In this document: positions 24,622 to 47,288 of the stretch, piece by piece
Position numbering within the stretch: the stretch's first letter is position 1
How the letters are laid out: the number at the start of each line of letters is the position of its first letter
From: an archaeon
GTDB lineage: Archaea; Iainarchaeota; Iainarchaeia; Iainarchaeales; JAAZKV01
Length of the DNA stretch: 64,000 nucleotides
Assembly (NCBI GenBank): GCA_041661245.1
Contig: JBAZUY010000002.1
Span: 178,153 to 242,152 of the forward strand
Direction: 5' to 3'
Translations under genes and position numbers: made by a program
The notes under the pieces: model-generated
Told to the model about the DNA's origin: nothing
The model's input: the letters and a program-made list of their open reading frames with translations, nothing else
Database searches by the model: none

Positions 24622-24771
24622 TTATCCAACCCAAGTGAAAGATTTTTGACCAGCAGAACTTGTGCTTGATGGAACATATCCTTTTTTTTGAGGGCAAACA
24701 GCCCCTTTGATGAATTGGGTTTTTGAATCATCATTAACTTGAATCGGTTCTCCATCAGCAAACAGCATCAT
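24622..24771 (-). CDS. unannotated 49-aa partner ORF of the beta-helix gene (ends QKSFTWVG)
   Basis: My translation: MMLFADGEPIQVNDDSKTQFIKGAVCPQKKGYVPSSTSSAGQKSFTWVG. It starts 2 nt after the upstream stop. Its C-terminus is shared with the ORF at 26537-26692. Confidence 0.45.
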   Translation of the reverse strand: MMLFADGEPIQVNDDSKTQFIKGAVCPQKKGYVPSSTSSAGQKSFTWVG

Positions 24772-24773
24772 AC

Positions 24774-26474
24774 TTAGCTCACCGTAAAATCATCAACATT
24801 AATTGCATAATTATTCATGTTCGGCAAGAACTCCATGCTTAGTTCTCCGTCAGCTGTAATCAAATTAGCAGCGCAAGTCCAAGTGTACAATACCCAATCA
24901 GTTGTAAGCGCAGTAATATTACTCTCGGTTTTAATTGTTACTCCGTCAAGTTTCCACTTAGGAGTTAATGTTCCTGCCCAAGAAGCATTACTTGCCTTAA
25001 GATACATTGCAAAAGTTTTTGCAGTACTTGCTTTTGCAAAACAAGAAACTATTTTTACATCAAGATTATTTGCAGTAGTTGTACTAACCCAAGAAATACC
25101 GCAACTTGGAGCAGTTGTTCTAAAAGTGTTATAATCTTTTGTCACAGAACCTGCCCCCCAAATGGTACCAGTTTGGCCAAATGAATTTTGGAAAGTATAC
25201 ATCTTTAACGCATAACCACTAACTGGTCGGGAATATGCTTTTGCAATTGATCCACTGTCAATCGTGCAACCATAACAAGAAACAACTCCGGATGTTCCAG
25301 TCTTATCAATCCCATAAGTTGTTGGAGAATTAAAAGTACAATTAGTCAAATAAACTTCCCCTGCATAACCATCCAAATAAATTCCTTTACCGCAAGCTGA
25401 AAAAGAACATGAATCAATGATTACTCCGTGAACTTGTTGAATAAATATTCCATAAGAAGTGCAATTTGTGAATACACAATTCTTGAAAACCATCCCGGCT
25501 TGGAGGGTATTTGTAGAAATCCCCGTACCACAATTCTCAAAAGTGCAGGCATCAATTACGACATTAGTGGTAACACTACTTATCCCAGTTGTTAAATTTC
25601 TAAAATAACAATTTGTTACTCCCCCGCCAGAACCAGAAATTGCGACAAGCCCGCTAGTTCCAGAAATTATTTTATTATTTACTATTGTACTTGATGCTGC
25701 AAAATTTCCAATTCCCCCAATTCCTAACAAAAAAGAATTTCTACAAGTAATGACTGCATTATTACCATAAACCCCTGAATAAGATACAACTGCAGAAGCA
25801 CAACAAGCATCAATAACCCCGCCAGTATTAGTATAAATTCCAATAGCGTAAGCATGCGCAGTACAATTAGAGATAGTCATTAAAGTAATACCAAAACCAT
25901 AATTTGTTTCAACACAATTTATTTTTGAAATAGTTGCATTAGTAGTAGTATTAACTCCATAGAAACTAACAGTTCTTGCATTATTTGATTTGAACCAAGT
26001 TTCTCCATCTTGAGTTTGAGAAGTTAAATTCCATCCGCCTGAAAGAATTGTTCCGTTGGACAAAGTCATTGCATGAGCCCCAGCAGCACCTGTTGTTACC
26101 ACAACTAATTTGTTGCAGGAAGAAGTTGATCCTGTTGACCCACCATATTTAAGTTCCAAAGTAACCGCTGTTGGAGAAACTCCATTTACTCGGTAAAATG
26201 TTTCTTCAGCCCCATTTCCCGCAGCAGTTGGTTTGCCAATATAACTTCCAACTGCAATACTTCCGGAAACATCCGAAGAAGTATTTACTGTAACACTATT
26301 CGCAGTCCAAGTAAAAGTTGAAGAAACAGAAACGTAATCCGCAGTCTTTGCAACCCTAATATCATGAGGCCCACTAGCTTTTGCTACCGCAGCATTAACA
26401 GTTAAAAGCGGAGCACCAGCAGTACCCGCCGCAGCATCACTCCCACTCGCAATATCAACATAATAAATTGCCAT
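24774..26474 (-). CDS. right-handed beta-helix protein, subfamily B (no signal peptide), C-terminal jelly-roll/CBM-like domain
   Basis: Starts MAIYYVDIASGSDAAAGT. Contains many NC[TVY]F / xNCxxG PbH1-like repeats. C-terminus is ...YAINVDDFTVS. It is a paralog of 26694-28454. Confidence 0.7.
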   Translation of the reverse strand: MAIYYVDIASGSDAAAGTAGAPLLTVNAAVAKASGPHDIRVAKTADYVSVSSTFTWTANSVTVNTSSDVSGSIAVGSYIGKPTAAGNGAEETFYRVNGVSPTAVTLELKYGGSTGSTSSCNKLVVVTTGAAGAHAMTLSNGTILSGGWNLTSQTQDGETWFKSNNARTVSFYGVNTTTNATISKINCVETNYGFGITLMTISNCTAHAYAIGIYTNTGGVIDACCASAVVSYSGVYGNNAVITCRNSFLLGIGGIGNFAASSTIVNNKIISGTSGLVAISGSGGGVTNCYFRNLTTGISSVTTNVVIDACTFENCGTGISTNTLQAGMVFKNCVFTNCTSYGIFIQQVHGVIIDSCSFSACGKGIYLDGYAGEVYLTNCTFNSPTTYGIDKTGTSGVVSCYGCTIDSGSIAKAYSRPVSGYALKMYTFQNSFGQTGTIWGAGSVTKDYNTFRTTAPSCGISWVSTTTANNLDVKIVSCFAKASTAKTFAMYLKASNASWAGTLTPKWKLDGVTIKTESNITALTTDWVLYTWTCAANLITADGELSMEFLPNMNNYAINVDDFTVS

Positions 26475-26536
26475 TTTAATTCACCAAAAGTATAACAAAC
26501 TAAACACAACGCAGTATTTAATTCTTATCAAAAAAG

Positions 26537-26692
26537 TTATCCAACCCAAGTAAAAGATTTTTGTGTGCTACAACTAGTGCCACTTGAAGGAGTGTAAGTA
26601 CTTATTGAGGGAACAATCCCCCCAGCCAGAAAAGCATTTTTTACTGGAATTTGTAACCCCAATGCTTGCCCCCTAACCACAATCATTGTCAT
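26537..26692 (-). CDS. unannotated 51-aa partner ORF (ends QKSFTWVG)
   Basis: My translation: MTMIVVRGQALGLQIPVKNAFLAGGIVPSISTYTPSSGTSCSTQKSFTWVG. It starts 1 nt after the upstream stop. Confidence 0.45.
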   Translation of the reverse strand: MTMIVVRGQALGLQIPVKNAFLAGGIVPSISTYTPSSGTSCSTQKSFTWVG

Positions 26693-26693
26693 T

Positions 26694-28454
26694 TTAACTC
26701 ACCACTAAATCATCCACGTACACAGCATATGCATTCATGTTTGTTTGAAACTCCAAACTTAATTCTCCATCAGAAGTAATTAAATTTCCTGCACAAGTAT
26801 AAGAGTACTGTACCCAACTTGTAGTAACTGAAGTTATACTCGACTCAGTTTTAATTAATTTTCCATTAATTTTCCATTTTGGAATTAATGTTCCGGACCA
26901 AGAAGCATTACTCGCTTTCAAATAAAATGCAAATGTTCGTGCATTATTTGCATTCACATATGCAGAACCAATCTTGATATCAAAAGCATTATTTGTTGTT
27001 AATGCCGCCCAAGAAATACTTAAAGACGGAGGAGTAGTTCGATAAACAGTGGCTTCTTGTAAAACTGCCCCAGCTCCATAAATTGTTCCTGATTGACCAA
27101 ATGACCCTTGCAAAATATATTGCACCATATTATAACCAACCGCAGTAATATTGTATGCTTTTGCTTGTGAAGCACTATCAATTGAACAACCATAAATGAA
27201 TGCAGTCCCACAAGCACCATTTTCTCTATAAATTGCATAATTTGTGGGAGTAGTAAAAGTACAATTTGTTAAAACATGGTCCCCCGAATATTGATCCATA
27301 CTAATCCCATAAGAAACTGAACTAAATGTGCAACTATCCACAAGTAGGGATTTACAATAACTTGTGGTAATTGCAGTCCCTGTACCATTTTGAAAAGTAC
27401 AATTTCTAATAACATAACCACTCGCCAAGTTATTTGTGACATTCGCTTTAACACCCGTCCCACAATTATTAAAAGTAAAACCATCAATTACTGCGTTTGC
27501 CCCCGGTTGGTAATAACCAGTAGTACAATTTGAAATAATATTATTAGAATAAGTAATTGGCGAAGCGGTAACAGAATTGCAATTAATACCATATATCCCA
27601 GAATTAAATTTACAATTCGAAACAGTTCCTGAAGGAGTTGAATTATAATAAAGACAACCTAGCCCACTTAACCCACTATAAAGATAACAAGAAGTAATTG
27701 TTATTGCTGGAGTTCCCGCAATATAAATCGCTGAATTAGCATTAAAGTTTGAGCCACAACAATTTTGAAAAGTACCTGCAGAACCTGCCGAAAAATAATA
27801 ACCAAGTACATAAGCTGAACTAGTACAATTTGTAAAAGTTGAGGCTGTGCCCCCATTAATAGTAAATCCAACATAAGATTCAGCACAATTCATTTTTGAA
27901 ACTGTTGCATTTGCAGTAAGGGTCAACCCGTATGCAGAAGTCGCTGTTCTTAGACCATTACTTTTAAACCAAGTCTCTCCATCCTGAGCTTGAGTAGATA
28001 AATTCCATCCGCCAGAAATAGTTGTTCCTGTAGTATTACAAGTCATTGCAGTTGCTCCCGCAGCACCTGTCGTTACAACTACAAGCTTATTTACAGAAGA
28101 TTCAGTTTTTGTTGTCCCCCCATATTTTAATTCAAGAGTAATTGTGGCTGAAGTAATTGACACAACTCTGTAAAATGTTTCTTCAGCCCCATTACCTGCA
28201 GCAGTTGTTGTCCCAATATAATCTCCTGCTGCAATCGAAGCAGTTTTGTCCGCTGAAGTAGAAACTGAGGTTGAGTTGTTAGTCCAAGTAAAAGTTGCAC
28301 CACTTATTGAAGTATAAGCACTTGTTTTTGCAACCCTAATATCATGAGGACCACTAGCTTTTGCAACAGCTGCATTAACAGTTAAAAGAGGAGCAACATT
28401 AGTGCCTGCAGCAGCATCACTCCCACTAGCCAAATCCACATAATAAATTGCCAT
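26694..28454 (-). CDS. right-handed beta-helix protein, subfamily B (no signal peptide)
   Basis: Starts MAIYYVDLASGSDAAAGT. Contains PbH1-like NCTF repeats. C-terminus is ...YAVYVDDLVVS. Confidence 0.7.
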   Translation of the reverse strand: MAIYYVDLASGSDAAAGTNVAPLLTVNAAVAKASGPHDIRVAKTSAYTSISGATFTWTNNSTSVSTSADKTASIAAGDYIGTTTAAGNGAEETFYRVVSITSATITLELKYGGTTKTESSVNKLVVVTTGAAGATAMTCNTTGTTISGGWNLSTQAQDGETWFKSNGLRTATSAYGLTLTANATVSKMNCAESYVGFTINGGTASTFTNCTSSAYVLGYYFSAGSAGTFQNCCGSNFNANSAIYIAGTPAITITSCYLYSGLSGLGCLYYNSTPSGTVSNCKFNSGIYGINCNSVTASPITYSNNIISNCTTGYYQPGANAVIDGFTFNNCGTGVKANVTNNLASGYVIRNCTFQNGTGTAITTSYCKSLLVDSCTFSSVSYGISMDQYSGDHVLTNCTFTTPTNYAIYRENGACGTAFIYGCSIDSASQAKAYNITAVGYNMVQYILQGSFGQSGTIYGAGAVLQEATVYRTTPPSLSISWAALTTNNAFDIKIGSAYVNANNARTFAFYLKASNASWSGTLIPKWKINGKLIKTESSITSVTTSWVQYSYTCAGNLITSDGELSLEFQTNMNAYAVYVDDLVVS

Positions 28455-28481
28455 ATTAATTCACCAAAAAATTTCTATAAT

Positions 28482-37713: not shown

Positions 37714-38385
37714 ATGCATACTAAAGCACAAGGAACAACTGAATATTTAGTTATTATTGGAGTAGTAGTAGTGCTTGCACTTGTAGTAGTAGGAATATCA
37801 TTTGGACTACTCTCAGGCAGTAGCGATGCTAATGCCAAACAAACAAGATTATTTTGGGCTTCCCAAGAAGTTGCAATCACTGATGCAATAGCTGACTCAG
37901 CAGGAAATGCAACACTTGTAATACGAAATAATACTATTGATTCAATTACAATAAATTATATAATCTCTGACGGAACTAATTCACAAATTGTTTCTTCAGA
38001 TAGAAACACAATATATCGTGGAGAAAAAGGAACTTACAATTTTACTGGATTTGCTGCATGTACTGGGACTACAAAGACCTATGACTTGGCAATTAATTAC
38101 AACTCAGGGTATGGACTTGCAAAAAGCACTTCAACTAATCCGTTGGTAATTGATTGCAGAAGCGGAGCATCCAATTCAGCAAATTTTGATTTCCCCCTAA
38201 TTACAAACCCAATAACTGGAGCATTCCCAGTATACGATGGAACTCAATCAGGGTGGGTTGAATCAGGAAATAATGCTGGAGGAGTAACAATTAATCCTGA
38301 TGCAAATGCATTATGCTTTAATGGAAGTACTTGCGATGCAAACATTTCACAAATAGATGGAAACTTAGTTTTCGCAGTTAATTAA
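37714..38385 (+). CDS. class III signal peptide (pilin-like) protein
   Basis: Starts MHTKAQGTTEYLVIIGVVVVLALVVVG. It shares the pilin-domain motif (AITDAIADSAGNATLVIRNN) with the 20729 and 46440 proteins. Confidence 0.65.
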   Translation: MHTKAQGTTEYLVIIGVVVVLALVVVGISFGLLSGSSDANAKQTRLFWASQEVAITDAIADSAGNATLVIRNNTIDSITINYIISDGTNSQIVSSDRNTIYRGEKGTYNFTGFAACTGTTKTYDLAINYNSGYGLAKSTSTNPLVIDCRSGASNSANFDFPLITNPITGAFPVYDGTQSGWVESGNNAGGVTINPDANALCFNGSTCDANISQIDGNLVFAVN

Positions 38386-38460: not shown

Positions 38461-39423
38461 ATGGACGCAAGCAAATCCTTGATTTGCTTTGTTGCGTGCG
38501 CCGTGCCTGCACTAGCGCCGGCAAAACACTCTCCAAATGTTTATATGGGGTTAGAAGGAATAGATGTAACATCGGGTTTTGTGATGGAAAAACAATTAAT
38601 TGTCAAATTAACAAAGACTTTTGAAGATTTTGCGCATAAGAAAGACGGCGTTGAATTTTGGTTTGCGAGAGATTTGCAAACTCTTTTAGGGTATGACAAA
38701 TGGGAAAATTTTTCAACAGTTATTGAGAAGGCTAAAGAATCATGCAAGAATTCAGGATTTGACGCAAAGAACCATTTTCCCGACGTTAGGAAAATGGTAG
38801 GGCTTGGATCTGGTTCCGAAAGAGAAATTTTAGATTACACACTAACTCGGTATGCTTGTTATTTAATAGCACAAAACGGAGACCCAAGAAAAGAAGAGAT
38901 TGCTTTTGCGCAAAGTTATTTTGCTATCCAAACAAGAAAACAAGAATTAATTGAACAAAGAATTAAACTCGTTGAAAGAGTACAAGCAAGAAAAAAATTA
39001 ACAGAATCAGAGACAGAACTATCAAAACTCATTTATGAACGAGGAGTTGATGCTGACGGGTTTGCAAGAATTCGAAGCAAAGGAGATTTTGCACTATTTG
39101 GAGGAAATGACACAAACCAAATGAAACAAAAATTAAGTATTCCAAAAAACAGACCATTAGCTGATTTTTTGCCAACTGTAACAATTGCTGCAAAAAACTT
39201 GGCGACAGAGCTAACCAACTTCAATGTAAAACAAAACGATTTGGAAGGAGAAGTAAAAATATCCTCAGAACACATAAAAAATAACAAAGAAATGCGAAAT
39301 GTTTTAGCAAAAAACAAAATTATTCCTGAAAACTTACCTGCTGAAGAAGACCTTAAAAAACTAGAACGAAATGTAAAAAAAGATGAGAAAAAGCTTTACT
39401 CAAAAATAAACAAATCAAAATAA
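38461..39423 (+). CDS. dinD: DNA damage-inducible protein D (DinD)-like protein
   Basis: FEDFAHKKDGVEFWFARDLQTLLGYDKWENFSTVIEKAK matches my recollection of the DinD family. The true start is probably the ATG at 38584 (MEKQLIV...), because the upstream 41 codons are GC-rich and look non-coding. Confidence 0.65.
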   Translation: MDASKSLICFVACAVPALAPAKHSPNVYMGLEGIDVTSGFVMEKQLIVKLTKTFEDFAHKKDGVEFWFARDLQTLLGYDKWENFSTVIEKAKESCKNSGFDAKNHFPDVRKMVGLGSGSEREILDYTLTRYACYLIAQNGDPRKEEIAFAQSYFAIQTRKQELIEQRIKLVERVQARKKLTESETELSKLIYERGVDADGFARIRSKGDFALFGGNDTNQMKQKLSIPKNRPLADFLPTVTIAAKNLATELTNFNVKQNDLEGEVKISSEHIKNNKEMRNVLAKNKIIPENLPAEEDLKKLERNVKKDEKKLYSKINKSK

Positions 39424-40122
39424 TTAATCCTTTTTCTCTTCTTCCACAGGTTTCTTTCTTTTCCAAAGTCCAAATCCATCAAAGATACTGATTTCAAATA
39501 ACAAATACAATGGAAGGAATAATATTGTTTGACCAATTACATCCATTGGAGTGAATGGGCAAAATATTACAAACGCAAATATGGCAACAGCAACCATGGG
39601 CCTTTGTTTTGCTAATTTGTCCCGATTAATCCATCCCTTCTTTATTACATACCTCAACGGAATTGGAAACAAAAAGATTAATCCTGTTCCGAAAGAAACT
39701 GTTAGAATTGTTGTTAAAAGATTTCCATAATCCCAAAGAGAAGTAATTCCAATTGCTTTGTTTAATTCAACAAAATAGGGAACAACAAATTTAGTATAAG
39801 TTACTGCTCCAACAATTATTCCTGCTAAGAATAAAAATAAACCAAAAATAGAAGATTTTATTGCAAATTCTTTTTCTTCCTTATAGAGCGCACCCCACGC
39901 ATAAGACATAAAACTAATTACTGCCAAGGGAGCATACAAAAGTAAACCCGCTAAAACCCCGGTTTCCATTAGAGCCATAAATGAATTAACAGGATTAATA
40001 CTAACTACTTCAACAGATCCAACAAGGGAAACGAGAAACTTAGCTAGGTCCATTGAAAAGAACAAGCCAATGCAAAGCGCTAACACGAGCGCAATTGCAT
40101 TAGCAATTAATAGATTTCGCAC
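39424..40122 (-). CDS. tatC: twin-arginine translocase subunit TatC (short form)
   Basis: 232 aa with six TM helices. The FMALMETGVLAGLLLYAPLAVISFMSYAWGALYKEEKE region matches the conserved TatC TM2-TM3 loop (PGLY..E). Confidence 0.7.
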   Translation of the reverse strand: MRNLLIANAIALVLALCIGLFFSMDLAKFLVSLVGSVEVVSINPVNSFMALMETGVLAGLLLYAPLAVISFMSYAWGALYKEEKEFAIKSSIFGLFLFLAGIIVGAVTYTKFVVPYFVELNKAIGITSLWDYGNLLTTILTVSFGTGLIFLFPIPLRYVIKKGWINRDKLAKQRPMVAVAIFAFVIFCPFTPMDVIGQTILFLPLYLLFEISIFDGFGLWKRKKPVEEEKKD

Positions 40123-40126: not shown

Positions 40127-40321
40127 TCACTTTTTCTTTGCTTTTGTTTTTACTGCTTTGCCTTCACTAGCGTCAGCAAAAGCTTTCTTTGCTTCACCAA
40201 GTGATTTAGCCCACTCAATTACTTTTGGTGCTCCGAAAAGCAATATTACTGCTAAAACAACTATGATTAGCACTGTGTCTGTTATTCCAAACATTGATAA
40301 TTCCTCCAATAAAACTAACAC
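40127..40321 (-). CDS. tatA: twin-arginine translocase subunit TatA/E
   Basis: MFGITDTVLIIVVLAVILLFGAPKVIEWAKSLGEAKKAF shows the TatA pattern: TM helix, FG hinge, amphipathic helix. The likely start is the ATG at 40294. Confidence 0.7.
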   Translation of the reverse strand: MLVLLEELSMFGITDTVLIIVVLAVILLFGAPKVIEWAKSLGEAKKAFADASEGKAVKTKAKKK

Positions 40322-40359: not shown

Positions 40360-41211
40360 CTATTTCGCAAGAGTGTTATCGTACATTTCTTTTACTTCTG
40401 TTGCACTTAGTGGTCTTCTCCAAATGGATAGATCTTGAATTGAACCAGTAAAATAATTATTTGTATTTACTCCATCAAAGTTTGCCCCAATGTATAATGG
40501 AGAAGTGTTTGTGAAATCTACTCCTTCAACTAAAGAACACAAGTCCTTTTCCACTAGTTTACCATCAATAAATCTCTGGCAATTACCAAAGTGATCTACC
40601 GAATAAACTAAGAAGTGATAATTTGATGCTGTGCTAGGGATACTTGCGTCATACACTACTTTTTCCCCATCAGCTAGTTTTAGAGATACTTCTGAAGATT
40701 GTTTAGTGTAAACTCCAAACCCAACCGAGTTTGTATTTGTATCCATTTTGGATAAGATTGTGGAGTTTTCTTTTGGAGAATATTTTACCCATAAAGCAAT
40801 TGTAAACCCTTGTTTTGGTGCAAAGTTTAACAAAGAATTATTTTCGACTTTAATGTACCCATTCCCATTGAAATTAATTGCTTTCTTTCCCCACATACCA
40901 TCAATATAATTTACTGAAGTTGCTTGTCCGTCCAAACCATTACCGCTTGAATCAAAAGTGTCCCCGTTAAAGTGCCACATTGCGGCTAAACCAGCAGCAA
41001 CATAATTGTCTTTTTCCACTACTTGATTATTAATTGTAACCACATTACTATCTGCTTCAATTGCACCTGAAGAAGTTCTTGGGACAACACTAGGAGTTGG
41101 ATTGAGTAAGAAATTTAGTCCCATAACAAGAACAGCTAATACAATTAGAATAACAAAAGCAATTCCCAAATATTCCAAAATTTTATTCCCAGTAACCTTC
41201 ATACAAACCAC
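40360..41211 (-). CDS. membrane-anchored LamG / concanavalin-like lectin domain protein
   Basis: N-terminal TM helix. WHFNGDTFDSSGNGLDGQ...AINFNGNGYI...FTIALWVK...SIWRRPLSATEV follows the typical LamG-jellyroll pattern. Confidence 0.6.
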   Translation of the reverse strand: MVCMKVTGNKILEYLGIAFVILIVLAVLVMGLNFLLNPTPSVVPRTSSGAIEADSNVVTINNQVVEKDNYVAAGLAAMWHFNGDTFDSSGNGLDGQATSVNYIDGMWGKKAINFNGNGYIKVENNSLLNFAPKQGFTIALWVKYSPKENSTILSKMDTNTNSVGFGVYTKQSSEVSLKLADGEKVVYDASIPSTASNYHFLVYSVDHFGNCQRFIDGKLVEKDLCSLVEGVDFTNTSPLYIGANFDGVNTNNYFTGSIQDLSIWRRPLSATEVKEMYDNTLAK

Positions 41212-41338: not shown

Positions 41339-41809
41339 TCAACTAATTACACTAGTTGATTTAATGCTTGCCCCGGAATTTATCCCGGTCCCTTGTAAAA
41401 CAAAAAACTTAATCGCCATTGCTTTTGGATAACCTGGATAAAGATAAGTATTTCTAAAATGCATTGACGCAACTTTTGGATAATTTGGAGGAACATAATT
41501 ATTCTTGAATTTAATTGCTTTAAACTTTGGCCACCCAAAATTCAAATTTGCATTTGTATGGAAAGCCAAAAGCTTGGGATACCCGGGATAAGTATAGTTG
41601 TTTAGGGTGTTAAACGCCAATAATTTTGGATAGTTTGGAGGAACATAATTATTGTTAATTGCAAAACCTTTGAGAGTTGCGGTTGGGATTAGCCAAAAAT
41701 TCAACGCTTTTACTCTTAACCCTGAACTTTGTGTTTGAAAATTAATTCCTTTAACTTGAGGAGTTCTATCTGTTTGAAAATTAAGCCCTTTTATTGTTGG
41801 ATTAGACAT
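41339..41809 (-). CDS. 9-repeat micro-protein partner (fused triple version of the 3-repeat ORFs)
   Basis: 156 aa with nine units: PTIKGLNF, PQVKGINF, LRVKALNF, ATLKGFAI, PKLLAFNT, PKLLAFHT, PKFKAIKF, PKVASMHF, PKAMAIKF. Confidence 0.6.
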   Translation of the reverse strand: MSNPTIKGLNFQTDRTPQVKGINFQTQSSGLRVKALNFWLIPTATLKGFAINNNYVPPNYPKLLAFNTLNNYTYPGYPKLLAFHTNANLNFGWPKFKAIKFKNNYVPPNYPKVASMHFRNTYLYPGYPKAMAIKFFVLQGTGINSGASIKSTSVIS

Positions 41810-41814: not shown

Positions 41815-43134
41815 TCACGCTGAGACATCGTCAGTTCTAAGAGTCAATCTTACTTGAATAAATCTTCCAGAAACTGGAGTTATGGGCATTTCCAATTTTA
41901 CTTCAGTCCAAGCAATAGTTCCATCATCTTGATTAAATGAAGTACCACTACCCCTCACTTCAATTGTTTGGTAATTTGGTTTTGTGTCAGAAGTAGTTGT
42001 ATCAACCATTGTTGTCCCCCAGGTTTGATCAACAGCAAGATTGATTTGTTTAATTGCTTGAACACTTCCAAAATCATATACAGGGGACCAAATTACCCCC
42101 GCCGTTCCACCAATTAACTCAAAAAATCCAGTTGTGCCATTCTTGCCAACATTTCCATCAGGATTATACCATCCTGAATTATCATGCCCTGCATCAGGAA
42201 TAATATTCCAATTACTTTGCGGATCATAAGCTTGTCCTCTTGCGTAACCAAAAGGGATTGCTCCTTGAGTAGATGAAATACTTGAAGCAGTTGTCAAATA
42301 AAATATTTCATTCGCAGGATCAGCAAAATTTGGATTAGCAGAAATACTACTTGCATCAAAACCAACGGCTTGCCAAGCTGCCAAAGTAGCATAAGTGCCC
42401 CCGCCAGTAATCCAACCACTTGTGATTGAATAATAATGATTTTTAATTATTATTGCCGATGCAAGGTTAGCATTTGAAGTGCCTGTCCTAAAGGCATAAG
42501 TACAATTTGAAACAATATTATTCATAAAAACTATCGGGAATGCGGCTTGATTTGCAAAAGTTTGATATAACGCATATCCACAATTGTAAAAGGTGTTATT
42601 TACAACCGTATTAATAACTGTAGAATTATTTGCGGATAAATAAATCGCATAATTTGCTCCACTAAATCCAGAAAACAAACAATTTTGAATTATTGTAGGG
42701 GCAGTGTATACTGTGTTATAAATTGCAGCAGTTTGTCCATTAGAATAAAACTCTACCCCTTGTACTGATAAGGTAGTAAGAACAGGAGTATTCAAATAAA
42801 GCAGATACGACCCAATATGATTCTTTATTATTAATTTTCCACCTGTCGAATAAGGAGCAAAGGATTTGGTTTGTGTCCCTGCAATGTTAATCGTTATTGC
42901 ATTTCCTGAAGCAAGACTTGTCCCATCAAGAATTACAGTCCCATCAAAATAAATTGTTCCATTGAAAGTAGAAGGGATAGTTATTTTTTCATTATACGTC
43001 CCGCTTCCTATCACTAATGCGTCTCCAGTAGTTGTAAGAAGATTTGCCCCTGCTTGAATAGTTAATTTTGCTAGTGCGGCGGTTGTTCCATTGTTTGAAT
43101 CCGAACCGGATTTGTTTACATAATATGTTGCCAT
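41815..43134 (-). CDS. right-handed beta-helix protein, subfamily A (no signal peptide)
   Basis: Starts MATYYVNKSGSDSNNGTTAALAKLTIQAG. C-terminus is ...RFIQVRLTLRTDDVSA. An AGGTGA Shine-Dalgarno sequence and an in-frame TGA lie upstream. Confidence 0.7.
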   Translation of the reverse strand: MATYYVNKSGSDSNNGTTAALAKLTIQAGANLLTTTGDALVIGSGTYNEKITIPSTFNGTIYFDGTVILDGTSLASGNAITINIAGTQTKSFAPYSTGGKLIIKNHIGSYLLYLNTPVLTTLSVQGVEFYSNGQTAAIYNTVYTAPTIIQNCLFSGFSGANYAIYLSANNSTVINTVVNNTFYNCGYALYQTFANQAAFPIVFMNNIVSNCTYAFRTGTSNANLASAIIIKNHYYSITSGWITGGGTYATLAAWQAVGFDASSISANPNFADPANEIFYLTTASSISSTQGAIPFGYARGQAYDPQSNWNIIPDAGHDNSGWYNPDGNVGKNGTTGFFELIGGTAGVIWSPVYDFGSVQAIKQINLAVDQTWGTTMVDTTTSDTKPNYQTIEVRGSGTSFNQDDGTIAWTEVKLEMPITPVSGRFIQVRLTLRTDDVSA

Positions 43135-43151
43135 TTTTCTTTTTCACCTAA

Positions 43152-44456
43152 TTATGCTTGAACATTATTATTTCTTAATGTGATTCTAAATTGAATGTAT
43201 TGCCCTGTAATGGAGGGAGTTATTGTTCCATTGTATCTTACTTCTGTCCAACTTGGAGAAGCATCTCCTTGATTGTATGTTGAGTTACTTACTCTTACTT
43301 CCATTGTTTGTGCATTTGGTTGAGTATCAGTTCCAGTTGTGTCCACCATATTTGTTGGCCAATATTGAACCGTTGCTAAATTTATTCTTGAAAAAGTTGC
43401 TACCCCACTCAAATTATATACTGGCGACCAAAGAACTCCTGCAGTCCCGCCAGAGAGTTCAAAAGATCCTGTTGTTCCACTTTTTGTAATATTTCCGTCG
43501 GGGTTGTACCAACCCGAATTATCTGCCGTGCCCGTAATAATCCACTTTGAATCAGAATCATTTCCTGCCCCTCTTGATAAACCAAAAGGATAAGCTCCAA
43601 CTTTCGGACCCAAAGGAGAAACTGTTTCTAAAAAGAAAACTTCATTTGCAGGATCTGTAAGGGTTGGATCTTCAAAAATACTTCCCTGTTCAAATCCTGC
43701 TACTTGTGCTTGTGCCAGAGTAGTGTATGTGTTAGCAACATTTCTCCAATTTGTAATATTATAAAACTGATTATTAAAAGAAACTAACGTTGCATTTGTA
43801 GCAGATACTTGGTACCAAGCGGTTGTAATATTTGAGAAAATATTATTCCACATGTAGGTTAAATGAGTTTGAGGTGCATAGAATCCAGTTCCACACCCAT
43901 AAAATGTATTATAGTAAATACTACTTGTTGCAGAATATCCACTATTTGATTGAACTGCATAAGTGAATGCTCCGCTAAAAACACAATAACTCATATTTAT
44001 TGCACAAGTTTGTCCTCCCCCACCATAACAAGATACTCCAATAGTATTAGTTGGAGAATACCTAAAAACACAATTGTTCAAATAATAAACTGTAGTTGTA
44101 TTAACCGCTAAATATAACAATGCGGCTCCAACATTATTTTGGAAAATCCATTGACCGCCAGTAGTATATGCTCCAATAGTATACGAGGTTCCTGCTCCCC
44201 CAGACATTTGGAAAAGATACCCACTACCAAATCCACTACCATCTACAATAACTGTTCCGTCAGCATAAAAGTTTCTTAGAGTGGAAGAAGGTCTTTCGTT
44301 GTACAACCCCGAACCCACAATTATTGTGTCTCCGGATGCAGAACCTGTAATCGCTCCGCTAATTGTTAACTTTGGCCCAGTTATTCCACTAACAAAAGTT
44401 TGAGAAGTACCATCATAGGAGTCACTTCCACTTTTGTTTACATATTTTATTGCCAT
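43152..44456 (-). CDS. right-handed beta-helix protein, subfamily A (no signal peptide)
   Basis: Starts MAIKYVNKSGSDSYDGTSQTFVSG. C-terminus is ...QYIQFRITLRNNNVQA. Confidence 0.7.
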   Translation of the reverse strand: MAIKYVNKSGSDSYDGTSQTFVSGITGPKLTISGAITGSASGDTIIVGSGLYNERPSSTLRNFYADGTVIVDGSGFGSGYLFQMSGGAGTSYTIGAYTTGGQWIFQNNVGAALLYLAVNTTTVYYLNNCVFRYSPTNTIGVSCYGGGGQTCAINMSYCVFSGAFTYAVQSNSGYSATSSIYYNTFYGCGTGFYAPQTHLTYMWNNIFSNITTAWYQVSATNATLVSFNNQFYNITNWRNVANTYTTLAQAQVAGFEQGSIFEDPTLTDPANEVFFLETVSPLGPKVGAYPFGLSRGAGNDSDSKWIITGTADNSGWYNPDGNITKSGTTGSFELSGGTAGVLWSPVYNLSGVATFSRINLATVQYWPTNMVDTTGTDTQPNAQTMEVRVSNSTYNQGDASPSWTEVRYNGTITPSITGQYIQFRITLRNNNVQA

Positions 44457-44473
44457 TTTTATTTTTCACCTAA

Positions 44474-45784
44474 TTATGCTTGAACACCATTATTTCTCAT
44501 TGTTAATCTAACTTGGAAATATCTCCCGCTCACTGCAGAGATTGCAACATTGTATTTTACTTCAACCCAACTTATTACTCCATCATTCTGATTAAAAGTA
44601 CTACCACTTGCACGAAGTTCTACGGTTTGATAATTTGGACGAACATCACTTGCAGTTGCATCAACCATATTTGTCGGCCAATATTGAGTAGAAGCTAAAT
44701 CAACTTCAGTCACTGTTACACTATTTCCTAAATCATAAATTGGAGAATATAACACTGCAACATTCCCATTTGTTAACTCAAAGAATCCTGTTGTTCCATT
44801 CTTAGTTGCATTTCCATCCGGATTATACCAACCAGAATTATCTGCGGTCCCAGTAATATTCCAAGTTGAACCAACATCATTTGCTGCACCCAAAGTAAAA
44901 CCAAATGGATACGCTCCAATATCCGCCCCAACAGGAGAAACAACTTTTGGATAAAATATTCCATTCGAGGGGTCAGTTAATTGAGGATCTACTGAAACTG
45001 AGTTTACTTCAAAACCTGCGGCTTGAATCAATGCTAAAGAATCATAGTCTTGATTATAGGGATGCCATTTGGAAACGTTGTACTCATGATTATTAATGGT
45101 AGTTGGCATAAGGGAGGTAGAAAAACTTAAGTACCACGCGTAAGTACAAGTGTGGAGCATATTTTGATAAAAATTATTTTCCATTCTAACAGTCCCATAA
45201 AGAGCATACGTGAGATTATAGAAAGTATTATTGTAAATACTATTAGTACTGCTTGGAGCTTGTCCTTGTCCTCCAACAGCACCAATCCCAGTACCTCCAA
45301 AAGTACTATTAGAAAAAACACAATGGTGTATTGCTAAATAATTATAACCTGCAGTGCCTGCGTAAATACCATACGTATTTCCAAATTGCATATTAAACGT
45401 ACAACTTGAAATGTAAAAATAAGCAACAGTGTTTGTTCCAGTTCCGGCAGAATATATAATGGAGGTACCAATATTATTTTGGAAAACCCACTGCCCCCCA
45501 GTTGAAGCAGCTGCAATAGATAAAGCAAAAGTAGCATTTCCAGACCATGACAGAAGCGGACCAGAAGAAAGAGAATAACCATCCCATATAACAATTCCAT
45601 CCGCTAACAAAGTTGTGGTTTTATTTGCAATAGAACATTTTTCATTATAAAGACCACTCCCGACAATAAGGGTATCATTAGTAGCAAGTAAATTAATTCC
45701 GGCTTGAATAGTCAATTTTGCTAAAGCCGCAGTAGTGCCATTATTTGCATTATCCCCACTTTTGTTTACGTAATATGTTGCCAT
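44474..45784 (-). CDS. right-handed beta-helix protein, subfamily A (no signal peptide)
   Basis: Starts MATYYVNKSGDNANNGTTAALAKLTIQAG. C-terminus is ...RYFQVRLTMRNNGVQA. Confidence 0.7.
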   Translation of the reverse strand: MATYYVNKSGDNANNGTTAALAKLTIQAGINLLATNDTLIVGSGLYNEKCSIANKTTTLLADGIVIWDGYSLSSGPLLSWSGNATFALSIAAASTGGQWVFQNNIGTSIIYSAGTGTNTVAYFYISSCTFNMQFGNTYGIYAGTAGYNYLAIHHCVFSNSTFGGTGIGAVGGQGQAPSSTNSIYNNTFYNLTYALYGTVRMENNFYQNMLHTCTYAWYLSFSTSLMPTTINNHEYNVSKWHPYNQDYDSLALIQAAGFEVNSVSVDPQLTDPSNGIFYPKVVSPVGADIGAYPFGFTLGAANDVGSTWNITGTADNSGWYNPDGNATKNGTTGFFELTNGNVAVLYSPIYDLGNSVTVTEVDLASTQYWPTNMVDATASDVRPNYQTVELRASGSTFNQNDGVISWVEVKYNVAISAVSGRYFQVRLTMRNNGVQA

Positions 45785-45793
45785 TTTTATTTT

Positions 45794-46450
45794 TCACCAT
45801 GTACTTATTGCTACTCTTTTCCAAGAATTGGTTGCGACACAAATGTAAACGTAATTTGCATCCCAACAAATATCTCCTTGTGTTCCTGCTGCTGTTGCAC
45901 TTGCAGGAGTTTTTGCGGTTCTTATTCTTATTCCATCATCTAAAATATCTAGTTTTCTTGTTGGAGCATTTGTTCCAATTCCTACTCTATTATTCAAAGC
46001 ATCAGTATAAATCAAATACTGATCGCCCACACTTTTTACATTAAATGAATCAGCAGCAGCATTTCCAAGTCCACTATTAACCACTAAACCTTTTGAAATG
46101 GTGGATTGCGCTGTTCCCCCAGTTATTGTTAAATATTTATTTGTATAATCCCAAGTAAAGTTTGCATTTCCTGAGATTGCACTTGGACCTATTCCGTAAG
46201 CAATTTGATTGTTCGCAATTGTTGGAGCAACATTAAGGAAACCTTCAACTGGATAATTTACCCCTCTGCTTCTGAAAACTAATCCTGAAGCATTAGCTAC
46301 TCCTGACAAGCCAATTACTCCAACACCAATTGCCCCTGCAATTAGTGCTTTTTTCTTTAGTGATTCTCTAAAATCTAAATCGGGTGTATCAACTGGAGTT
46401 GAACCGAAGAATTGTTTCTTTTTCTTTTCGATGTATTCTTCAAGATCCAT
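45794..46450 (-). CDS. Tat-like (xR) signal peptide protein with a tail-fibre-like mature domain, operon head 3
   Basis: Signal FRESLKKKALIAGAIGVGVIGLSGVANA|SG. The mature part contains NRVGIGTNAPTRKLDI and the C-terminal GDICWDANYVYICVATNSWKRVAISTW. Confidence 0.6.
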   Translation of the reverse strand: MDLEEYIEKKKKQFFGSTPVDTPDLDFRESLKKKALIAGAIGVGVIGLSGVANASGLVFRSRGVNYPVEGFLNVAPTIANNQIAYGIGPSAISGNANFTWDYTNKYLTITGGTAQSTISKGLVVNSGLGNAAADSFNVKSVGDQYLIYTDALNNRVGIGTNAPTRKLDILDDGIRIRTAKTPASATAAGTQGDICWDANYVYICVATNSWKRVAISTW

Positions 46451-47288
46451 CGCTAATCACCGTATTACCATTTTCGTCAATATACATTTTTCCCAAATTA
46501 TTATCTAATGAAGTAATAGTTATTGAGGGATTAGATTTGTAAACATTAAGATCCATTGTTACTGGATTTGTTAATCCTGCTCCGCCCCCTCCGCAAGTTC
46601 CCCAACTTAATGCACCGCTAACTATTTTCAGACAATTACCATCTTGTCCGGTGTAATCTGGTAAACTTGATCCTCCTTGGCATGCTTGAACTTCTCCCTG
46701 CGCTACACACACTACATTATTTATTCCTTCAAAATTCCAAGTAACATTATCTTTTTTTCCCAACACTAATGCTTCTCCTCCAGAGATTAATTTTTGGGTT
46801 TGATTTAGCGGAGAGTAATAAAATAATATTTTGTCATACGCACAACCATTACTTGTTGGACATACTCCAATATCCGGAAAGAAAATTGCTTTTTGTTCTT
46901 TTGGATTAAATACAATTCCATTTCCACTAATTGTGAATTCATTTTCATCAACTTTGTAACCAATTAAACGCAAACCAAACTCAGTATTGTTTGTTAAAAC
47001 AAAAACAGCATCCCCGTTTTCATCAACCATCGCATCTGCTAACGCAATTGTTTGAGTACTCCAATATTGTTTATTTTGAATAGAAGTCAAGTTTGGACTT
47101 TTTGCTCCTCCCTCAAAAACTGTAACAAACAAAGTTATTGCAGCAATAGAAATTACAATTATTACAACTACAATTGTTAAGTATTCAGTTATCCCTTGCG
47201 CCCTCTCCGATACCCGCGCTCTATTCCCAACAAAACCCATGCGTAATATTAGTCTTAAGTAGTTAAAAAAGGTTTTCTTAATGAACAA
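46440..47288 (-). CDS. class III signal peptide (pilin-like) protein
   Basis: Contains RAQGITEYLTIVVVIIVISIAAITL. The likely start is the ATG at 47240 (MGFVGNRARVSERAQG...). It overlaps the next gene by 11 nt. Confidence 0.6.
   Translation of the reverse strand: MFIKKTFFNYLRLILRMGFVGNRARVSERAQGITEYLTIVVVIIVISIAAITLFVTVFEGGAKSPNLTSIQNKQYWSTQTIALADAMVDENGDAVFVLTNNTEFGLRLIGYKVDENEFTISGNGIVFNPKEQKAIFFPDIGVCPTSNGCAYDKILFYYSPLNQTQKLISGGEALVLGKKDNVTWNFEGINNVVCVAQGEVQACQGGSSLPDYTGQDGNCLKIVSGALSWGTCGGGGAGLTNPVTMDLNVYKSNPSITITSLDNNLGKMYIDENGNTVISDGS

What the first reader, a model, noticed from the sequence alone, without database searches (positions are those of the whole stretch)
24622..47288. 22.7-kb block of tail-fibre-like, beta-helix and micro-ORF genes with an embedded Tat translocase: candidate undescribed surface-fibre system
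Between XPD and a run of orphan genes, nearly everything is on the minus strand and forms three operon-like units.

- Unit 1 (29009->24622): Tat-like head, 586-aa beta-helix, 51-aa ORF, 566-aa beta-helix, 49-aa ORF.
- Unit 2 (37153->29146): Tat-like head, then four beta-helix + 3-repeat micro-ORF cassettes.
- Unit 3 (47288->41339): class III pilin-like protein, Tat-like head, three beta-helix genes, then a 9-repeat micro-ORF.

Between units 2 and 3 lie tatC, tatA, a LamG lectin-fold protein, two pilin-related genes and a dinD-like gene.

The parts resemble phage receptor-binding hardware: fibre-like proteins, tailspike-like beta-helices with C-terminal jelly-rolls, and small downstream chaperone-like ORFs. 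However, there is no capsid, terminase, portal or integrase gene. The parts are instead wired to cellular export signals.

For an organism that may live attached to other cells, a multi-paralog adhesin/depolymerase arsenal is a plausible role. That is inference only.
Basis: partly seen in the sequence, partly recalled or inferred. Interest (0 to 1): 0.9.

Follow-up and report, generated by a model that had tools for sequence, protein, structure and literature searches.

The report
Phage tail-fibre tips domesticated by an archaeon
An archaeal chromosome carries three operons of phage receptor-binding genes in which the long tail-fibre shaft has been replaced by a shared export signal, next to a Tat export machine, which suggests the cell displays virus-derived "grappling" proteins on its own surface.

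Summary
In detail: coordinates, gene order, repeat counts, tatA/tatC, the LamG gene and the Bro-N gene are all as described.

The parts are homologous to phage hardware, not merely similar. In uncultured tailed-phage contigs the same gene order recurs: a long tail fibre (600 to over 1,100 aa), then one to three beta-helix proteins, then a small protein with N-terminal PKLxAFxF-type repeats.

In the window each "head" is only the last ~120-190 residues of such a fibre. It is fused to a shared ~45-residue N-terminal module: [KF]R-x-SLKK, an Ala/Gly-rich h-region, ANA-SG and a short strand. The three signals are 63-86% identical. The three mature domains are unrelated.

The flanks are archaeal housekeeping genes with no capsid, terminase, portal or integrase, and the same 306-kb contig carries archaeal ribosomal genes.

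The beta-helix plus micro-protein pair is the conserved core. Repeat number rises with the number of beta-helix genes.

Best reading: an exapted viral receptor-binding arsenal, displayed on the cell. Export of pre-assembled complexes through the adjacent TatAC is inferred. The signal falls just below the Tat HMM cut-off and lacks a twin arginine. The target and biological role are not shown.

The parts
46440..47288 (-). Unit 3, gene 1: pilin-like protein, 282 aa, with a class III-type signal (RAQG/ITEYLTIVVVIIVI). Its 3' end overlaps the head gene by 11 nt.
   Evidence: Translation and motif. No Pfam, PHROG or PADLOC hit.
45794..46450 (-). Unit 3 head, 218 aa. Shared signal module (FRESLKK...ANASG-LVFR) plus a phage fibre-tip domain.
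   Evidence: The C-terminus matches phrog_17312 'tail protein', E 1.7e-10. It is homologous to the C-termini of a fibre fragment of at least 940 aa (L073) and a 1042-aa fibre (L003) that precede beta-helix genes.
44474..45784 (-). Unit 3 beta-helix protein, 436 aa, no signal peptide.
   Evidence: HMM of the family, 590 bits. Nearest relatives are listed.
43152..44456 (-). Unit 3 beta-helix protein, 434 aa, no signal peptide.
   Evidence: Nearest relative is P0033 from an 'uncultured archaeon' contig, 51% identity.
41815..43134 (-). Unit 3 beta-helix protein, 439 aa: beta-helix plus C-terminal beta-sandwich.
   Evidence: AF2 pLDDT 90.5. Foldseek finds phage tail fibres, tailspikes and polysaccharide lyases. 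Nearest relatives are phage-borne P0002 and P0004, 48-50% identity.
41339..41809 (-). Unit 3 micro-protein, 156 aa, nine PKLxAFxF-type repeats; follows three beta-helix genes.
   Evidence: Weak phmmer hits to the phage micro-ORFs of L073 and L077.
40360..41211 (-). LamG / concanavalin-like protein, 283 aa, with an N-terminal hydrophobic pilin-like segment; lies directly upstream of tatA-tatC.
   Evidence: PF13385, E 1.2e-20. Weak hit to NF052521 'TafC family fimbrial protein', E 4e-8, far below cut-off.
40127..40321 (-). tatA (probable true start at the internal MFGI...).
   Evidence: TIGR01411 tatAE, E 6.5e-8, 32 bits, below the cut-off of 53.9.
39424..40122 (-). tatC, 232 aa.
   Evidence: PF00902, E 5.6e-27, 95 bits. 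TIGR00945, E 7e-22.
38461..39423 (+). Bro-N / DinD-like protein of phage type.
   Evidence: PF02498, E 1.5e-10. phrog_8036, E 1.3e-87. PADLOC candidate PDC-S13, E 2.4e-116.
37714..38385 (+). Pilin-like protein, 223 aa (KAQG/TTEYLVIIGVVVV).
   Evidence: PF04021 Class_IIIsignal, E 0.0096, sub-threshold, plus the motif.
37377..37673 (+). 98-aa protein that shares a C-terminal motif with the 223-aa pilin-like protein.
   Evidence: Translation only. No family hit.
36404..37153 (-). Unit 2 head, 249 aa. Shared signal module (KRDSLKK...ANASG-VILR) plus a phage fibre-tip domain.
   Evidence: The last 55 aa are 71% identical to the tail fibre of cyanophage KBS-S-2A. The C-terminus is homologous to the end of a collagen-like fibre of at least 1189 aa in L004. 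Orthologue P0069 is 70% identical and also carries the signal.
34252..36351 (-). Unit 2 beta-helix protein, 699 aa (tandem beta-helix).
   Evidence: The same architecture occurs in P0005, P0006 and L154.
34058..34255 (-). Unit 2 micro-protein, 65 aa, three repeats; overlaps the upstream gene by 4 nt.
32478..34028 (-). Unit 2 beta-helix protein, 516 aa, with an N-terminal insert.
   Evidence: By my count from the alignment with phage-borne P0010, identity is about 70% in the N-terminal insert, about 25-30% in the helix body and about 68% in the C-terminal domain.
32263..32475 (-). Unit 2 micro-protein, 70 aa, three repeats.
30883..32241 (-). Unit 2 beta-helix protein, 452 aa.
30689..30880 (-). 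Unit 2 micro-protein, 63 aa, three repeats.
   Evidence: phmmer hit to the L071/L152 micro-ORF, E 2.6e-6.
29343..30668 (-). Unit 2 beta-helix protein, 441 aa.
29146..29340 (-). Unit 2 micro-protein, 64 aa, three repeats.
28482..29009 (-). Unit 1 head, 175 aa. Shared signal module (KRNSLKK...ANASG-IIFR) plus a jelly-roll fibre-tip domain.
   Evidence: phrog_35197, E 5.7e-34, and phrog_10330 'virion structural protein'. Homologous to the last ~115 aa of a 725-aa phage fibre in L156, E 4e-38. AF2 gives a jelly-roll with pLDDT about 96. The domain occurs in 11,860 protein clusters, almost always at the C-terminus.
26694..28454 (-). Unit 1 beta-helix protein, 586 aa.
   Evidence: PF13229, E 3e-14. 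Homologues sit in podophage-like contigs L156 and L157.
26537..26692 (-). Unit 1 micro-protein, 51 aa, a different type from the Unit 2/3 micro-proteins.
   Evidence: ORFs of 48-50 aa lie just downstream of the phage homologues, directly in L157 and after a 107-aa gene in L156.
24774..26474 (-). Unit 1 beta-helix protein, 566 aa.
   Evidence: PF13229, E 1.9e-16. 54% identical to its 586-aa paralogue.
24622..24771 (-). Unit 1 micro-protein, 49 aa.
   Evidence: Weak match to the 48-aa ORF of L156, E 0.0045.

Best explanation
The block is a chromosomal arsenal of receptor-binding modules taken from tailed viruses and refitted for use by an archaeal cell.

In phages the module is a long tail fibre, then one or more tailspike-like proteins, then a small repeat protein. 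Each tailspike-like protein has a conserved N-terminal cap, a hypervariable beta-helix body and a conserved C-terminal beta-sandwich.

In this archaeon the fibre has been cut down three separate times to its distal domain. Each stub is fused to one shared N-terminal module: a Tat-like signal plus a short strand.

Shown here: homology and conserved gene order with phage modules; the cellular context; the shared signal under purifying selection; co-localisation with tatA-tatC.

Inferred:
1. The signal-less beta-helix proteins and micro-proteins assemble with the stub in the cytoplasm, as they would during phage assembly.
2. The folded complex is exported by the adjacent TatAC, riding on the stub's signal ('hitchhiking').
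3. The micro-protein acts as an adaptor whose repeated short strands each dock one beta-helix protein.
4. The displayed complexes bind or cut surface glycans of partner cells.
For: Phage origin and gene order:
- Fibre -> beta-helix -> repeat micro-ORF is found in contigs with terminase, portal, capsid, tail or adaptor genes (L151, L157, and the contig of P0002).
- It is also found in huge phage-like contigs (L003, L004) and in IMG/VR viral contigs.
- Fibre C-termini match the three heads: L004 for Unit 2, L003 and L073 for Unit 3, L156 for Unit 1. PHROG and cyanophage hits agree.

Cellular host:
- Flanks encode PAC2, SET, an aminotransferase, a 2-hydroxyacid dehydrogenase, GrpB, HAD and pilins.
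- The same 305,976-bp contig carries the L11 protein of the L152 region, where TBP, Spt5 and the L11/L1/L10 genes lie.
- No viral hallmark genes, no tRNA and no flanking direct repeats.

Signal:
- Only the three heads in the window have it.
- U1 and U2 signal cores are 86% identical, with 15 synonymous against 5 non-synonymous codon differences. The mature parts are unrelated.
- The h-region is less hydrophobic (Kyte-Doolittle 2.1-2.2) than the Sec-like and pilin signals of the same window (2.5-3.7).
- TIGR01409 scores 15.4 bits against a cut-off of 16.7.
- tatA and tatC lie about 1 kb downstream of Unit 3 on the same strand.
- Signal-bearing orthologues exist in other samples: P0069, P0219, P0222.

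Pairing of beta-helix and micro-protein:
- By my tally, a repeat protein follows the beta-helix array in most evaluable arrays (about 20 of about 23), including high-GC relatives at 27-30% identity.
- Repeat number tracks the number of beta-helix genes: 3 for 1, 4 for 2, 9 for 3 by my reading of the sequences; Spearman 0.71 with a hand-made regex.
- The micro-protein type follows the beta-helix C-domain type, not the fibre-tip type.

Fold and conservation:
- Fold as.
- Conservation profile: N-cap 0.53, body 0.29, C-domain 0.48.
Against: - None of the heads has a twin arginine (KR, KR, FR; YR in P0222). The Tat-signal HMM is below its cut-off.
- Complexes of several 45-75 kDa beta-helix proteins, possibly trimers, may be too large for Tat. 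This rests on general knowledge of Tat and was not tested.
- A lone beta-helix + micro pair elsewhere on the contig has no head next to it.
- No interaction, export, surface location or glycan activity has been shown.
- The beta-helix body has no conserved acidic catalytic pair across the family.
- The neighbour-joining tree has no support values.
- 'DPANN' is my inference; the public records say only 'archaeon'.
Confidence: 0.6

Rival explanations
1. The block is decaying remnants of one or more integrated viruses: tail-fibre modules left behind with no function for the cell.
For: All three unit types have phage counterparts. A phage-type Bro-N gene lies inside the block.
Against: - More than 20 consecutive intact ORFs with Shine-Dalgarno-like motifs.
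- One signal module grafted onto three unrelated fibre tips and kept under purifying selection.
- The head + beta-helix arrangement is conserved at 70% identity in two other samples.
- No hallmark genes, integrase, tRNA or att-like repeats.
Confidence: 0.08
2. The beta-helix proteins are secreted polysaccharide lyases or hydrolases used for feeding. The heads and micro-ORFs are accessory, and the phage similarity reflects only a shared enzyme fold.
For: Foldseek finds rhamnogalacturonan lyase, PL6 alginate lyase, RbmB and pectin methylesterase. The C-terminal beta-sandwich gives only weak, non-significant matches to carbohydrate-binding modules (E about 1).
Against: - The beta-helix proteins have no signal peptide.
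- Homology and gene order with phage fibre modules go well beyond fold.
- No sugar transporter or catabolic genes were found in the block or flanks.
- The helix body is hypervariable with no conserved catalytic residues.
Confidence: 0.12
3. The block has an antiviral role: virus-derived receptor-binding proteins expressed by the cell to mask, destroy or mimic its own virus receptors (superinfection exclusion or decoy).
For: Viral origin of the parts. The Bro-N gene inside the block matches a PADLOC defence candidate, PDC-S13, at E 2.4e-116.
Against: - No head, beta-helix or micro protein hits PADLOC.
- The phage contigs carrying the nearest relatives encode peptidoglycan hydrolases (NlpC/P60, Amidase_2, Peptidase_M23) or a sigma-70 factor. 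That suggests bacterial, not archaeal, hosts.
- Ten diverse paralogues seem many for self-receptor masking.
Confidence: 0.1
4. The origin is the same, but export is not by Tat. The shared N-terminus would be a Sec signal or signal-anchor. The beta-helix proteins would reach the outside another way, or join the stub only after lysis or vesicle release.
For: No twin arginine. TIGR01409 is below its cut-off. A homologous stub, P0249, carries a classical hydrophobic Sec-like N-terminus. A lone beta-helix + micro pair has no adjacent head.
Against: - The motif [KFY]R-[DEN]-[SK]-L-K aligns with the RR-x-F-L-K core, keeping the second Arg.
- The Ala/Gly-rich h-region is clearly less hydrophobic than the Sec-like and pilin signals of the same window.
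- tatA and tatC are embedded in the block.
- Sec cannot carry pre-folded partners that lack a signal (established knowledge).
Confidence: 0.3
5. The block is an assembly chimera of phage and archaeal DNA.
For: None found.
Against: Window proteins and the L11 protein of the L152 ribosomal-protein region lie on one 305,976-bp contig, and are held by several independent sources. Signal-bearing heads followed by beta-helix genes were recovered from two other samples. Base composition is even across the junctions.
Confidence: 0.02

Closest known systems
Tailspike / tail-fibre receptor-binding modules of tailed phages (for example Klebsiella K2-2 tailspike 8iqe, Agrobacterium phage 7-7-1 tail fibres 9rkv)
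   Same: Right-handed beta-helix with a C-terminal beta-sandwich. Direct homologues sit in phage tail modules in the same gene order. Conserved ends and a variable body.
   Different: This family has no match in cultured-phage genomes, and its Unit 2/3 members reach no Pfam family cut-off. It has no N-terminal particle-binding domain. It is always followed by a repeat micro-protein. Here it is chromosomal in an archaeon, with the fibre cut down to a signal-bearing stub.
Bdellovibrio bacteriovorus MAT (mosaic adhesive trimer) fibres (PMC10769870)
   Same: A cell-encoded, multi-paralogue family of phage-fibre-like proteins with diverse tips. They are displayed on the surface of a cell that depends on contact with other cells.
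   Different: MATs are single polypeptides of about 1,000 aa: signal peptide, a conserved ~130-aa domain, a trimeric fibre, and often an S74 chaperone. Here the system is split into stub, separate signal-less beta-helix proteins and a micro-protein. No S74 domain was found. The host is an archaeon, and a Tat-like signal sits next to tatAC.
Tat 'hitchhiker' export of folded hetero-oligomers (for example hydrogenase small/large subunits; general principle stated in PMC10924467)
   Same: One partner carries the signal and the others have none. The Tat genes are adjacent (abstract listed).
   Different: Known cases are redox enzymes with true RR signals. Here the signal is KR or FR, the cargo would be viral structural proteins, and nothing has been tested.
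Tat-fimbriae (tafi) of Haloarcula hispanica (PMC11821415)
   Same: An archaeal surface appendage whose subunits depend on Tat and are joined by donated beta-strands. The LamG protein upstream of tatA gives a weak TafC hit.
   Different: No Taf-family model was hit by any of the ten proteins scanned apart from the weak TafC match of the LamG protein, and no TafD-like peptidase was noticed. The components here derive from phages.
Tailocins and contractile injection systems (domesticated phage tails; my own knowledge)
   Same: Phage structural genes kept in a cellular chromosome for the cell's own use, without capsid or packaging genes.
   Different: Those keep sheath, tube and baseplate and are released by lysis. 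Here only the distal receptor-binding module is kept, and it has gained an export signal.

Membership tests
Phage tailspike-like right-handed beta-helix receptor-binding proteins | Right-handed parallel beta-helix fold | tested here: met
   AF2 pLDDT 90.5 with a beta-helix over roughly residues 1-290. Foldseek hits to tailspikes and pectate-lyase-like proteins. PF13229 for the two Unit 1 proteins.
Phage tailspike-like right-handed beta-helix receptor-binding proteins | Encoded in the tail / receptor-binding module of tailed-phage genomes | tested here: met
   Homologues lie beside terminase, portal, capsid, adaptor or tail genes and in IMG/VR viral contigs.
Phage tailspike-like right-handed beta-helix receptor-binding proteins | Pfam Beta_helix / Pectate_lyase model above the gathering score (Unit 2/3 proteins) | tested here: not met
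   Only DUF5123 at 25 bits, below its cut-off of 35.
Phage tailspike-like right-handed beta-helix receptor-binding proteins | Homotrimer with glycan-binding or glycan-cleaving activity | not testable with these tools
   Only monomer prediction was available, and there is no biochemistry.
Tat (twin-arginine) signal peptide | S/T-R-R-x-F-L-K twin-arginine motif | tested here: not met
   The heads have KRNSLKK, KRDSLKK and FRESLKK. Only the second Arg is conserved, also in P0219 and P0222.
Tat (twin-arginine) signal peptide | TIGR01409 TAT_signal_seq at or above 16.7 bits | tested here: not met
   15.4 bits (E 0.017) for the Unit 1 and Unit 2 heads. No hit for the Unit 3 head.
Tat (twin-arginine) signal peptide | Weakly hydrophobic h-region followed by an A-x-A cleavage motif | tested here: met
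   Kyte-Doolittle 2.14-2.17, against 2.5-3.7 for the other signals in the window. ANA-SG is present in all three heads.
Tat (twin-arginine) signal peptide | Export that depends on TatAC | not testable with these tools
   Needs genetics or reporter assays.
TatAC translocase | TatC and TatA family models | tested here: met
   TatC: PF00902, 95 bits, cut-off 25. TatA: TIGR01411, E 6.5e-8, but below the curated cut-off.
Integrated provirus / prophage | Capsid, portal, terminase and integrase genes, and attachment sites | tested here: not met
   Pfam and PHROG scans of the block and of 40 flanking ORFs found none. No tRNA. No flanking direct repeats of 12 nt or more.
Tailocin / contractile injection system | Sheath, tube and baseplate genes | tested here: not met
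   None found in Pfam or PHROG scans.
Bdellovibrio MAT fibre superfamily | Single ~1,000-aa chain: signal peptide, conserved ~130-aa beta-rich domain, trimeric fibre, often a Peptidase_S74 domain | tested here: not met
   The heads are 175-249 aa with no fibre shaft and no S74 hit. MAT features are taken from PMC10769870.
Tat-fimbriae (tafi) | TafA/DUF1102-type subunits, TafD peptidase, TafG | tested here: not met
   Only a far sub-threshold TafC hit for the LamG protein, 32.7 bits against a cut-off of 410.
Archaeal type IV pilin (class III signal peptide) | PF04021 above cut-off, or a cleavage motif followed by a hydrophobic helix | tested here: inconclusive
   PF04021 scores 16.3 bits against a cut-off of 23.7 for 37714-38385. 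The motif KAQG/TTEYL or RAQG/ITEYL plus a strongly hydrophobic helix is present.

The most novel reading that the evidence does not exclude
A small-genome archaeon, probably an episymbiont, has captured receptor-binding modules from bacteriophages across the domain boundary. It pre-assembles them in the cytoplasm on a signal-bearing fibre stub, with repeat micro-proteins as strand-donating adaptors. It exports the folded complexes by Tat hitchhiking and uses this diversifiable arsenal to latch onto bacterial or other cells, or to cut into their glycan coats. That would be an archaeal, multi-subunit counterpart of the Bdellovibrio MAT fibres and a new class of Tat cargo.
Probability: 0.2. Interest if true: 0.9.

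Novelty: new variant of a known kind. Interest (0 to 1): 0.72.

Why it matters
How tiny symbiotic archaea recognise and hold on to partner cells is largely unknown. This locus offers concrete candidates: about ten diversified, virus-derived glycan-binding proteins in one genome.

It would also be a way of domesticating viral parts that I found no description of in the held literature. Only the distal receptor-binding module is kept, made cell-autonomous by grafting on an export signal.

It defines three uncharacterised but widespread phage elements:
- a beta-helix family with no match in cultured-phage genomes, whose Unit 2/3 members reach no Pfam cut-off;
- its obligatory repeat micro-protein partner;
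- a fibre-tip jelly-roll domain present in about 12,000 protein clusters, for which I found no Pfam family and no solved structure by sequence search.

If Tat hitchhiking holds, it extends Tat cargo from redox enzymes to viral structural assemblies.

Tried and rejected
- Pfam, PHROGs and PADLOC on the micro-ORFs, and Pfam and PADLOC on the Unit 2 and Unit 3 heads, gave no family hit.
- tblastn of a Unit 3 beta-helix protein against 50,697 cultured-phage records gave no match.
- Sequence search of the three heads against the PDB gave nothing significant.
- A scan of GTDB genome representatives found only two full-length relatives. The other 56 loci share only the generic ~50-90-residue beta-helix N-cap, so I ignored them.
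- No tRNA or Rfam hits and no flanking direct repeats, so there is no sign of an integration site.
- The prophage, tailocin and chimera readings are rejected for the reasons given under rival explanations and in the membership table.
- The regex repeat count is hand-tuned. It both misses true repeats (0 in L003, 8 of 9 in Unit 3) and adds false ones, so the Spearman value shows only a trend.
- The neighbour-joining tree is star-like and has no support values. I use it only to say that the window paralogues are not one clean clade.
- The context look-up for the signal-bearing orthologue P0219 returned a 1-kb contig with no information.
- I did not submit an artificial beta-helix + micro fusion for structure prediction.
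- I could not place the organism below 'archaeon'.

Full report
**1. What is in the sequence**

The ORF layout matches the finding exactly. Three minus-strand units share one plan.
- Unit 1 (29009->24622): head 175 aa, beta-helix 586, micro 51, beta-helix 566, micro 49.
- Unit 2 (37153->29146): head 249 aa, then four beta-helix + micro cassettes.
- Unit 3 (47288->41339): pilin-like 282 aa (overlapping the head by 11 nt), head 218, three beta-helix genes, then a 156-aa micro-protein.

Micro-ORFs start -4 to +5 nt from the preceding stop. Like almost every gene in the block, they have a GGTGA/GTGA motif 5-10 nt upstream.

Between Units 3 and 2 lie LamG (PF13385), tatA (TIGR01411, E 6.5e-8), tatC (PF00902, 95 bits), a Bro-N gene and two pilin-like genes. 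Unit 3, LamG, tatA and tatC follow one another on the same strand.

**2. Cellular, not proviral**

Pfam scans of 38 flanking ORFs found housekeeping genes: PAC2, SET, a class V aminotransferase, a 2-hydroxyacid dehydrogenase, GrpB, pterin dehydratase, HAD hydrolases and a trypsin-like protease. By reading the translations I also see a cluster of pilin-like proteins at about 8.8-16 kb; Pfam found no family there.

No capsid, portal, terminase or integrase gene turned up in Pfam or PHROG scans. There are no tRNA or Rfam hits and no flanking direct repeats.

The window's XPD, TatC and aminotransferase lie on a 305,976-bp contig. That contig also carries the L11 protein of locus L152, where FtsZ, TBP, L21e, Spt5 and the L11/L1/L10/L12 genes lie. 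NCBI labels these proteins '[archaeon]'.

That region holds a tenth family member: a lone beta-helix (433 aa) with an 85-aa repeat micro-ORF, between ftsZ and secE.

**3. The parts are phage receptor-binding modules by homology**

*Unit 2/3 beta-helix family.*
- It has about 60 unnamed relatives and no match in cultured phages.
- Where context is available, most relatives sit in tailed-phage contigs:
  - L151: GpA terminase, Mu portal, Phage_tail_S.
  - P0002's 43.9-kb contig: SU10 adaptor, DNA polymerase A, NlpC/P60.
  - P0037's contig: HNH, Amidase_2.
  - L150.
  - Two huge phage-like contigs, L003 (222 kb) and L004 (143 kb, with DnaB, primase and a sigma-70 factor).
  - IMG/VR viral contigs.
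- In each, the gene just upstream is a fibre and the gene just downstream is a small repeat protein.
- The fibre of at least 1189 aa in L004 (collagen-like; the contig cuts off its start) ends with the same domain as the Unit 2 head. The L003 fibre (1042 aa) and the L073 fibre fragment (at least 940 aa) end like the Unit 3 head.

*Unit 1.*
- It has its own beta-helix family of 22 relatives. These lie in podophage-like contigs:
  - L157: terminase, SU10 portal, capsid, adaptor.
  - L156: Peptidase_M23.
- The last ~115 residues of the 725-aa fibre in L156 match the Unit 1 head at E 4e-38. ORFs of 48-50 aa lie just downstream of the beta-helix gene, directly in L157 and after a 107-aa gene in L156.
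- PHROGs call the Unit 1 head domain a 'virion structural protein'.
- An exhaustive search finds this domain in 11,860 clusters, almost always at the C-terminus of proteins of 170-1450 aa.

*Other links.* The last 55 residues of the Unit 2 head are 71% identical to a cyanophage tail fibre.

**4. What the archaeon changed**

Each head is a fibre tip without its shaft, fused to one shared N-terminal module: [K/F]R-[N/D/E]-SLKK, an 18-residue Ala/Gly-rich h-region, ANA-SG, and a short strand [IVL][IV][FL]R.
- The module is 63-86% identical between units, while the mature domains are unrelated.
- Between Units 1 and 2, 15 of the 20 codon differences in the module are synonymous. It is therefore conserved by selection rather than by recent copying.
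- In the window only these three proteins carry it.
- Orthologues with the same module occur in other samples:
  - P0069: 70% identical to the Unit 2 head and again followed by a tandem beta-helix gene.
  - P0219 and P0222.
- A further stub, P0249, has an ordinary Sec-like N-terminus.

**5. Is it a Tat signal?**

For:
- The motif aligns with RR-x-F-L-K and keeps the second Arg.
- The h-region is much less hydrophobic (Kyte-Doolittle 2.1-2.2) than the Sec-like and pilin signals of the same window (2.5-3.7).
- TIGR01409 scores 15.4 bits against a cut-off of 16.7.
- tatA and tatC are embedded in the block.

Against:
- There is no twin arginine.
- The HMM is sub-threshold, and the Unit 3 head does not hit it at all.

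I treat Tat targeting as plausible but unproven.

**6. The beta-helix + micro-protein pair**

*Structure.* AF2 (52-sequence alignment, pLDDT 90.5) gives a right-handed beta-helix plus a C-terminal beta-sandwich. The best structural matches are phage tail fibres and tailspikes (9rkv, 8iqe) and polysaccharide lyases. E-values are modest and TM-scores low, so this is fold-class evidence only.

*Conservation.* Mean column identity is 0.53 for the N-cap, 0.29 for the helix body and 0.48 for the C-domain. By my count from the alignment, one window paralogue is about 70% / 25-30% / 68% identical to a phage homologue across these three parts. This is the mosaic pattern expected of receptor-binding proteins.

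*Repeat protein.*
- By my tally, a repeat protein follows the beta-helix array in about 20 of about 23 evaluable arrays. This includes high-GC relatives at 27-30% identity.
- Repeat number rises with the number of preceding beta-helix genes (with caveats).
- The repeat module also forms the N-terminus of 821- to 991-aa Ser-rich proteins.
- The micro-protein type follows the beta-helix C-domain type, not the fibre-tip type.
- I therefore infer that it is an adaptor that docks beta-helix proteins through short strands. This is not shown.

*Unit 1 head.* Its mature domain is a jelly-roll (pLDDT about 96) that also resembles the 7-7-1 tail-fibre entry.

**7. History**

The three downstream Unit 2 paralogues (441, 452 and 516 aa) are each other's nearest relatives at 50-57% identity. 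The others are nearest to phage-borne or other-genome copies at 45-51%. The neighbour-joining tree interleaves window and phage sequences (no support values).

This suggests both local duplication and exchange with phages.

Several donor-like phage contigs encode peptidoglycan hydrolases or a sigma-70 factor. That points to bacterial hosts and hence transfer between domains, but this is inference.

**8. Comparison with the known**

The closest functional analogue is the Bdellovibrio MAT fibre family. The closest mechanistic analogues are Tat hitchhiking and Tat-fimbriae. The closest evolutionary analogue is the tailocins.

None has this split architecture. Full-text searches found no paper linking DPANN archaea with domesticated tail-fibre modules.

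**9. Verdict**

It needs one correction: the triad is a native phage module, and the archaeon has cut it down and fitted it with an export signal. Function and export route remain hypotheses.

Noticed in passing
L152 10001-11586 (same 306-kb contig as the window, outside it): A tenth family member: a lone 433-aa beta-helix gene with an 85-aa four-repeat micro-ORF and no adjacent head. It is inserted between ftsZ and the secE-spt5-L11 cluster. A 660-aa pilin-like protein (DUF5018, a homologue of window 20729-22513) sits between the L11 and L1 genes.
   Followed up: partly
window 38461-39423 (+): The Bro-N / DinD-like protein matches phrog_8036 almost end to end (E 1.3e-87). It also matches the PADLOC defence candidate PDC-S13 (E 2.4e-116). 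It may be an independent defence or mobile-element gene inside the block.
   Followed up: partly
window 40360-41211 (-): The LamG protein directly upstream of tatA-tatC gives a weak hit to NCBIfam 'TafC family fimbrial protein', the tip subunit of Tat-fimbriae (E 4e-8, far below cut-off). The hit probably reflects only the shared lectin fold.
   Followed up: no
window 28482-29009 (-), residues 58-175: The jelly-roll domain of the Unit 1 head occurs in 11,860 protein clusters, nearly always at the C-terminus. It matched no Pfam family and no solved structure by sequence. It looks like a very common, unnamed phage fibre-tip domain.
   Followed up: partly
L001 11335-14310; L080 3230-5692: In phage-like loci the PKLQ-type repeat module is the N-terminus of proteins of 821 to 991 aa. 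It is followed by a conserved GPTYWLNGxPVGDLF motif and long Ser-rich tracts.
   Followed up: no
L001 9169-10020; L072 3623-4669: Paralogous Cys-rich proteins are inserted within or after beta-helix arrays in related loci. From the CxxC and HH motifs I read them as HNH-type endonucleases; this was not tested.
   Followed up: no
window 8874-16317 (-): A cluster of proteins with class III-like signals, plus a 787-aa polytopic membrane protein. It looks like an archaeal type IV pilus locus, yet none of these proteins hit any Pfam family at E <= 0.001.
   Followed up: no
window 1763-6475 (-): A 1570-aa protein with an N-terminal signal-like segment and a C-terminal hydrophobic anchor. It has no Pfam or PHROG hit.
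   Followed up: no
window 47291-47836, 48493-48837, 54746-55462, 58828-59730, 60517-61101: Several Lys/Arg-rich orphan proteins downstream of the block have no Pfam or PHROG hit.
   Followed up: partly
window 24622-47288, gene starts: Almost every gene in the block, including the micro-ORFs, has a GGTGA/GTGA Shine-Dalgarno-like motif 5-10 nt upstream of its start.
   Followed up: partly
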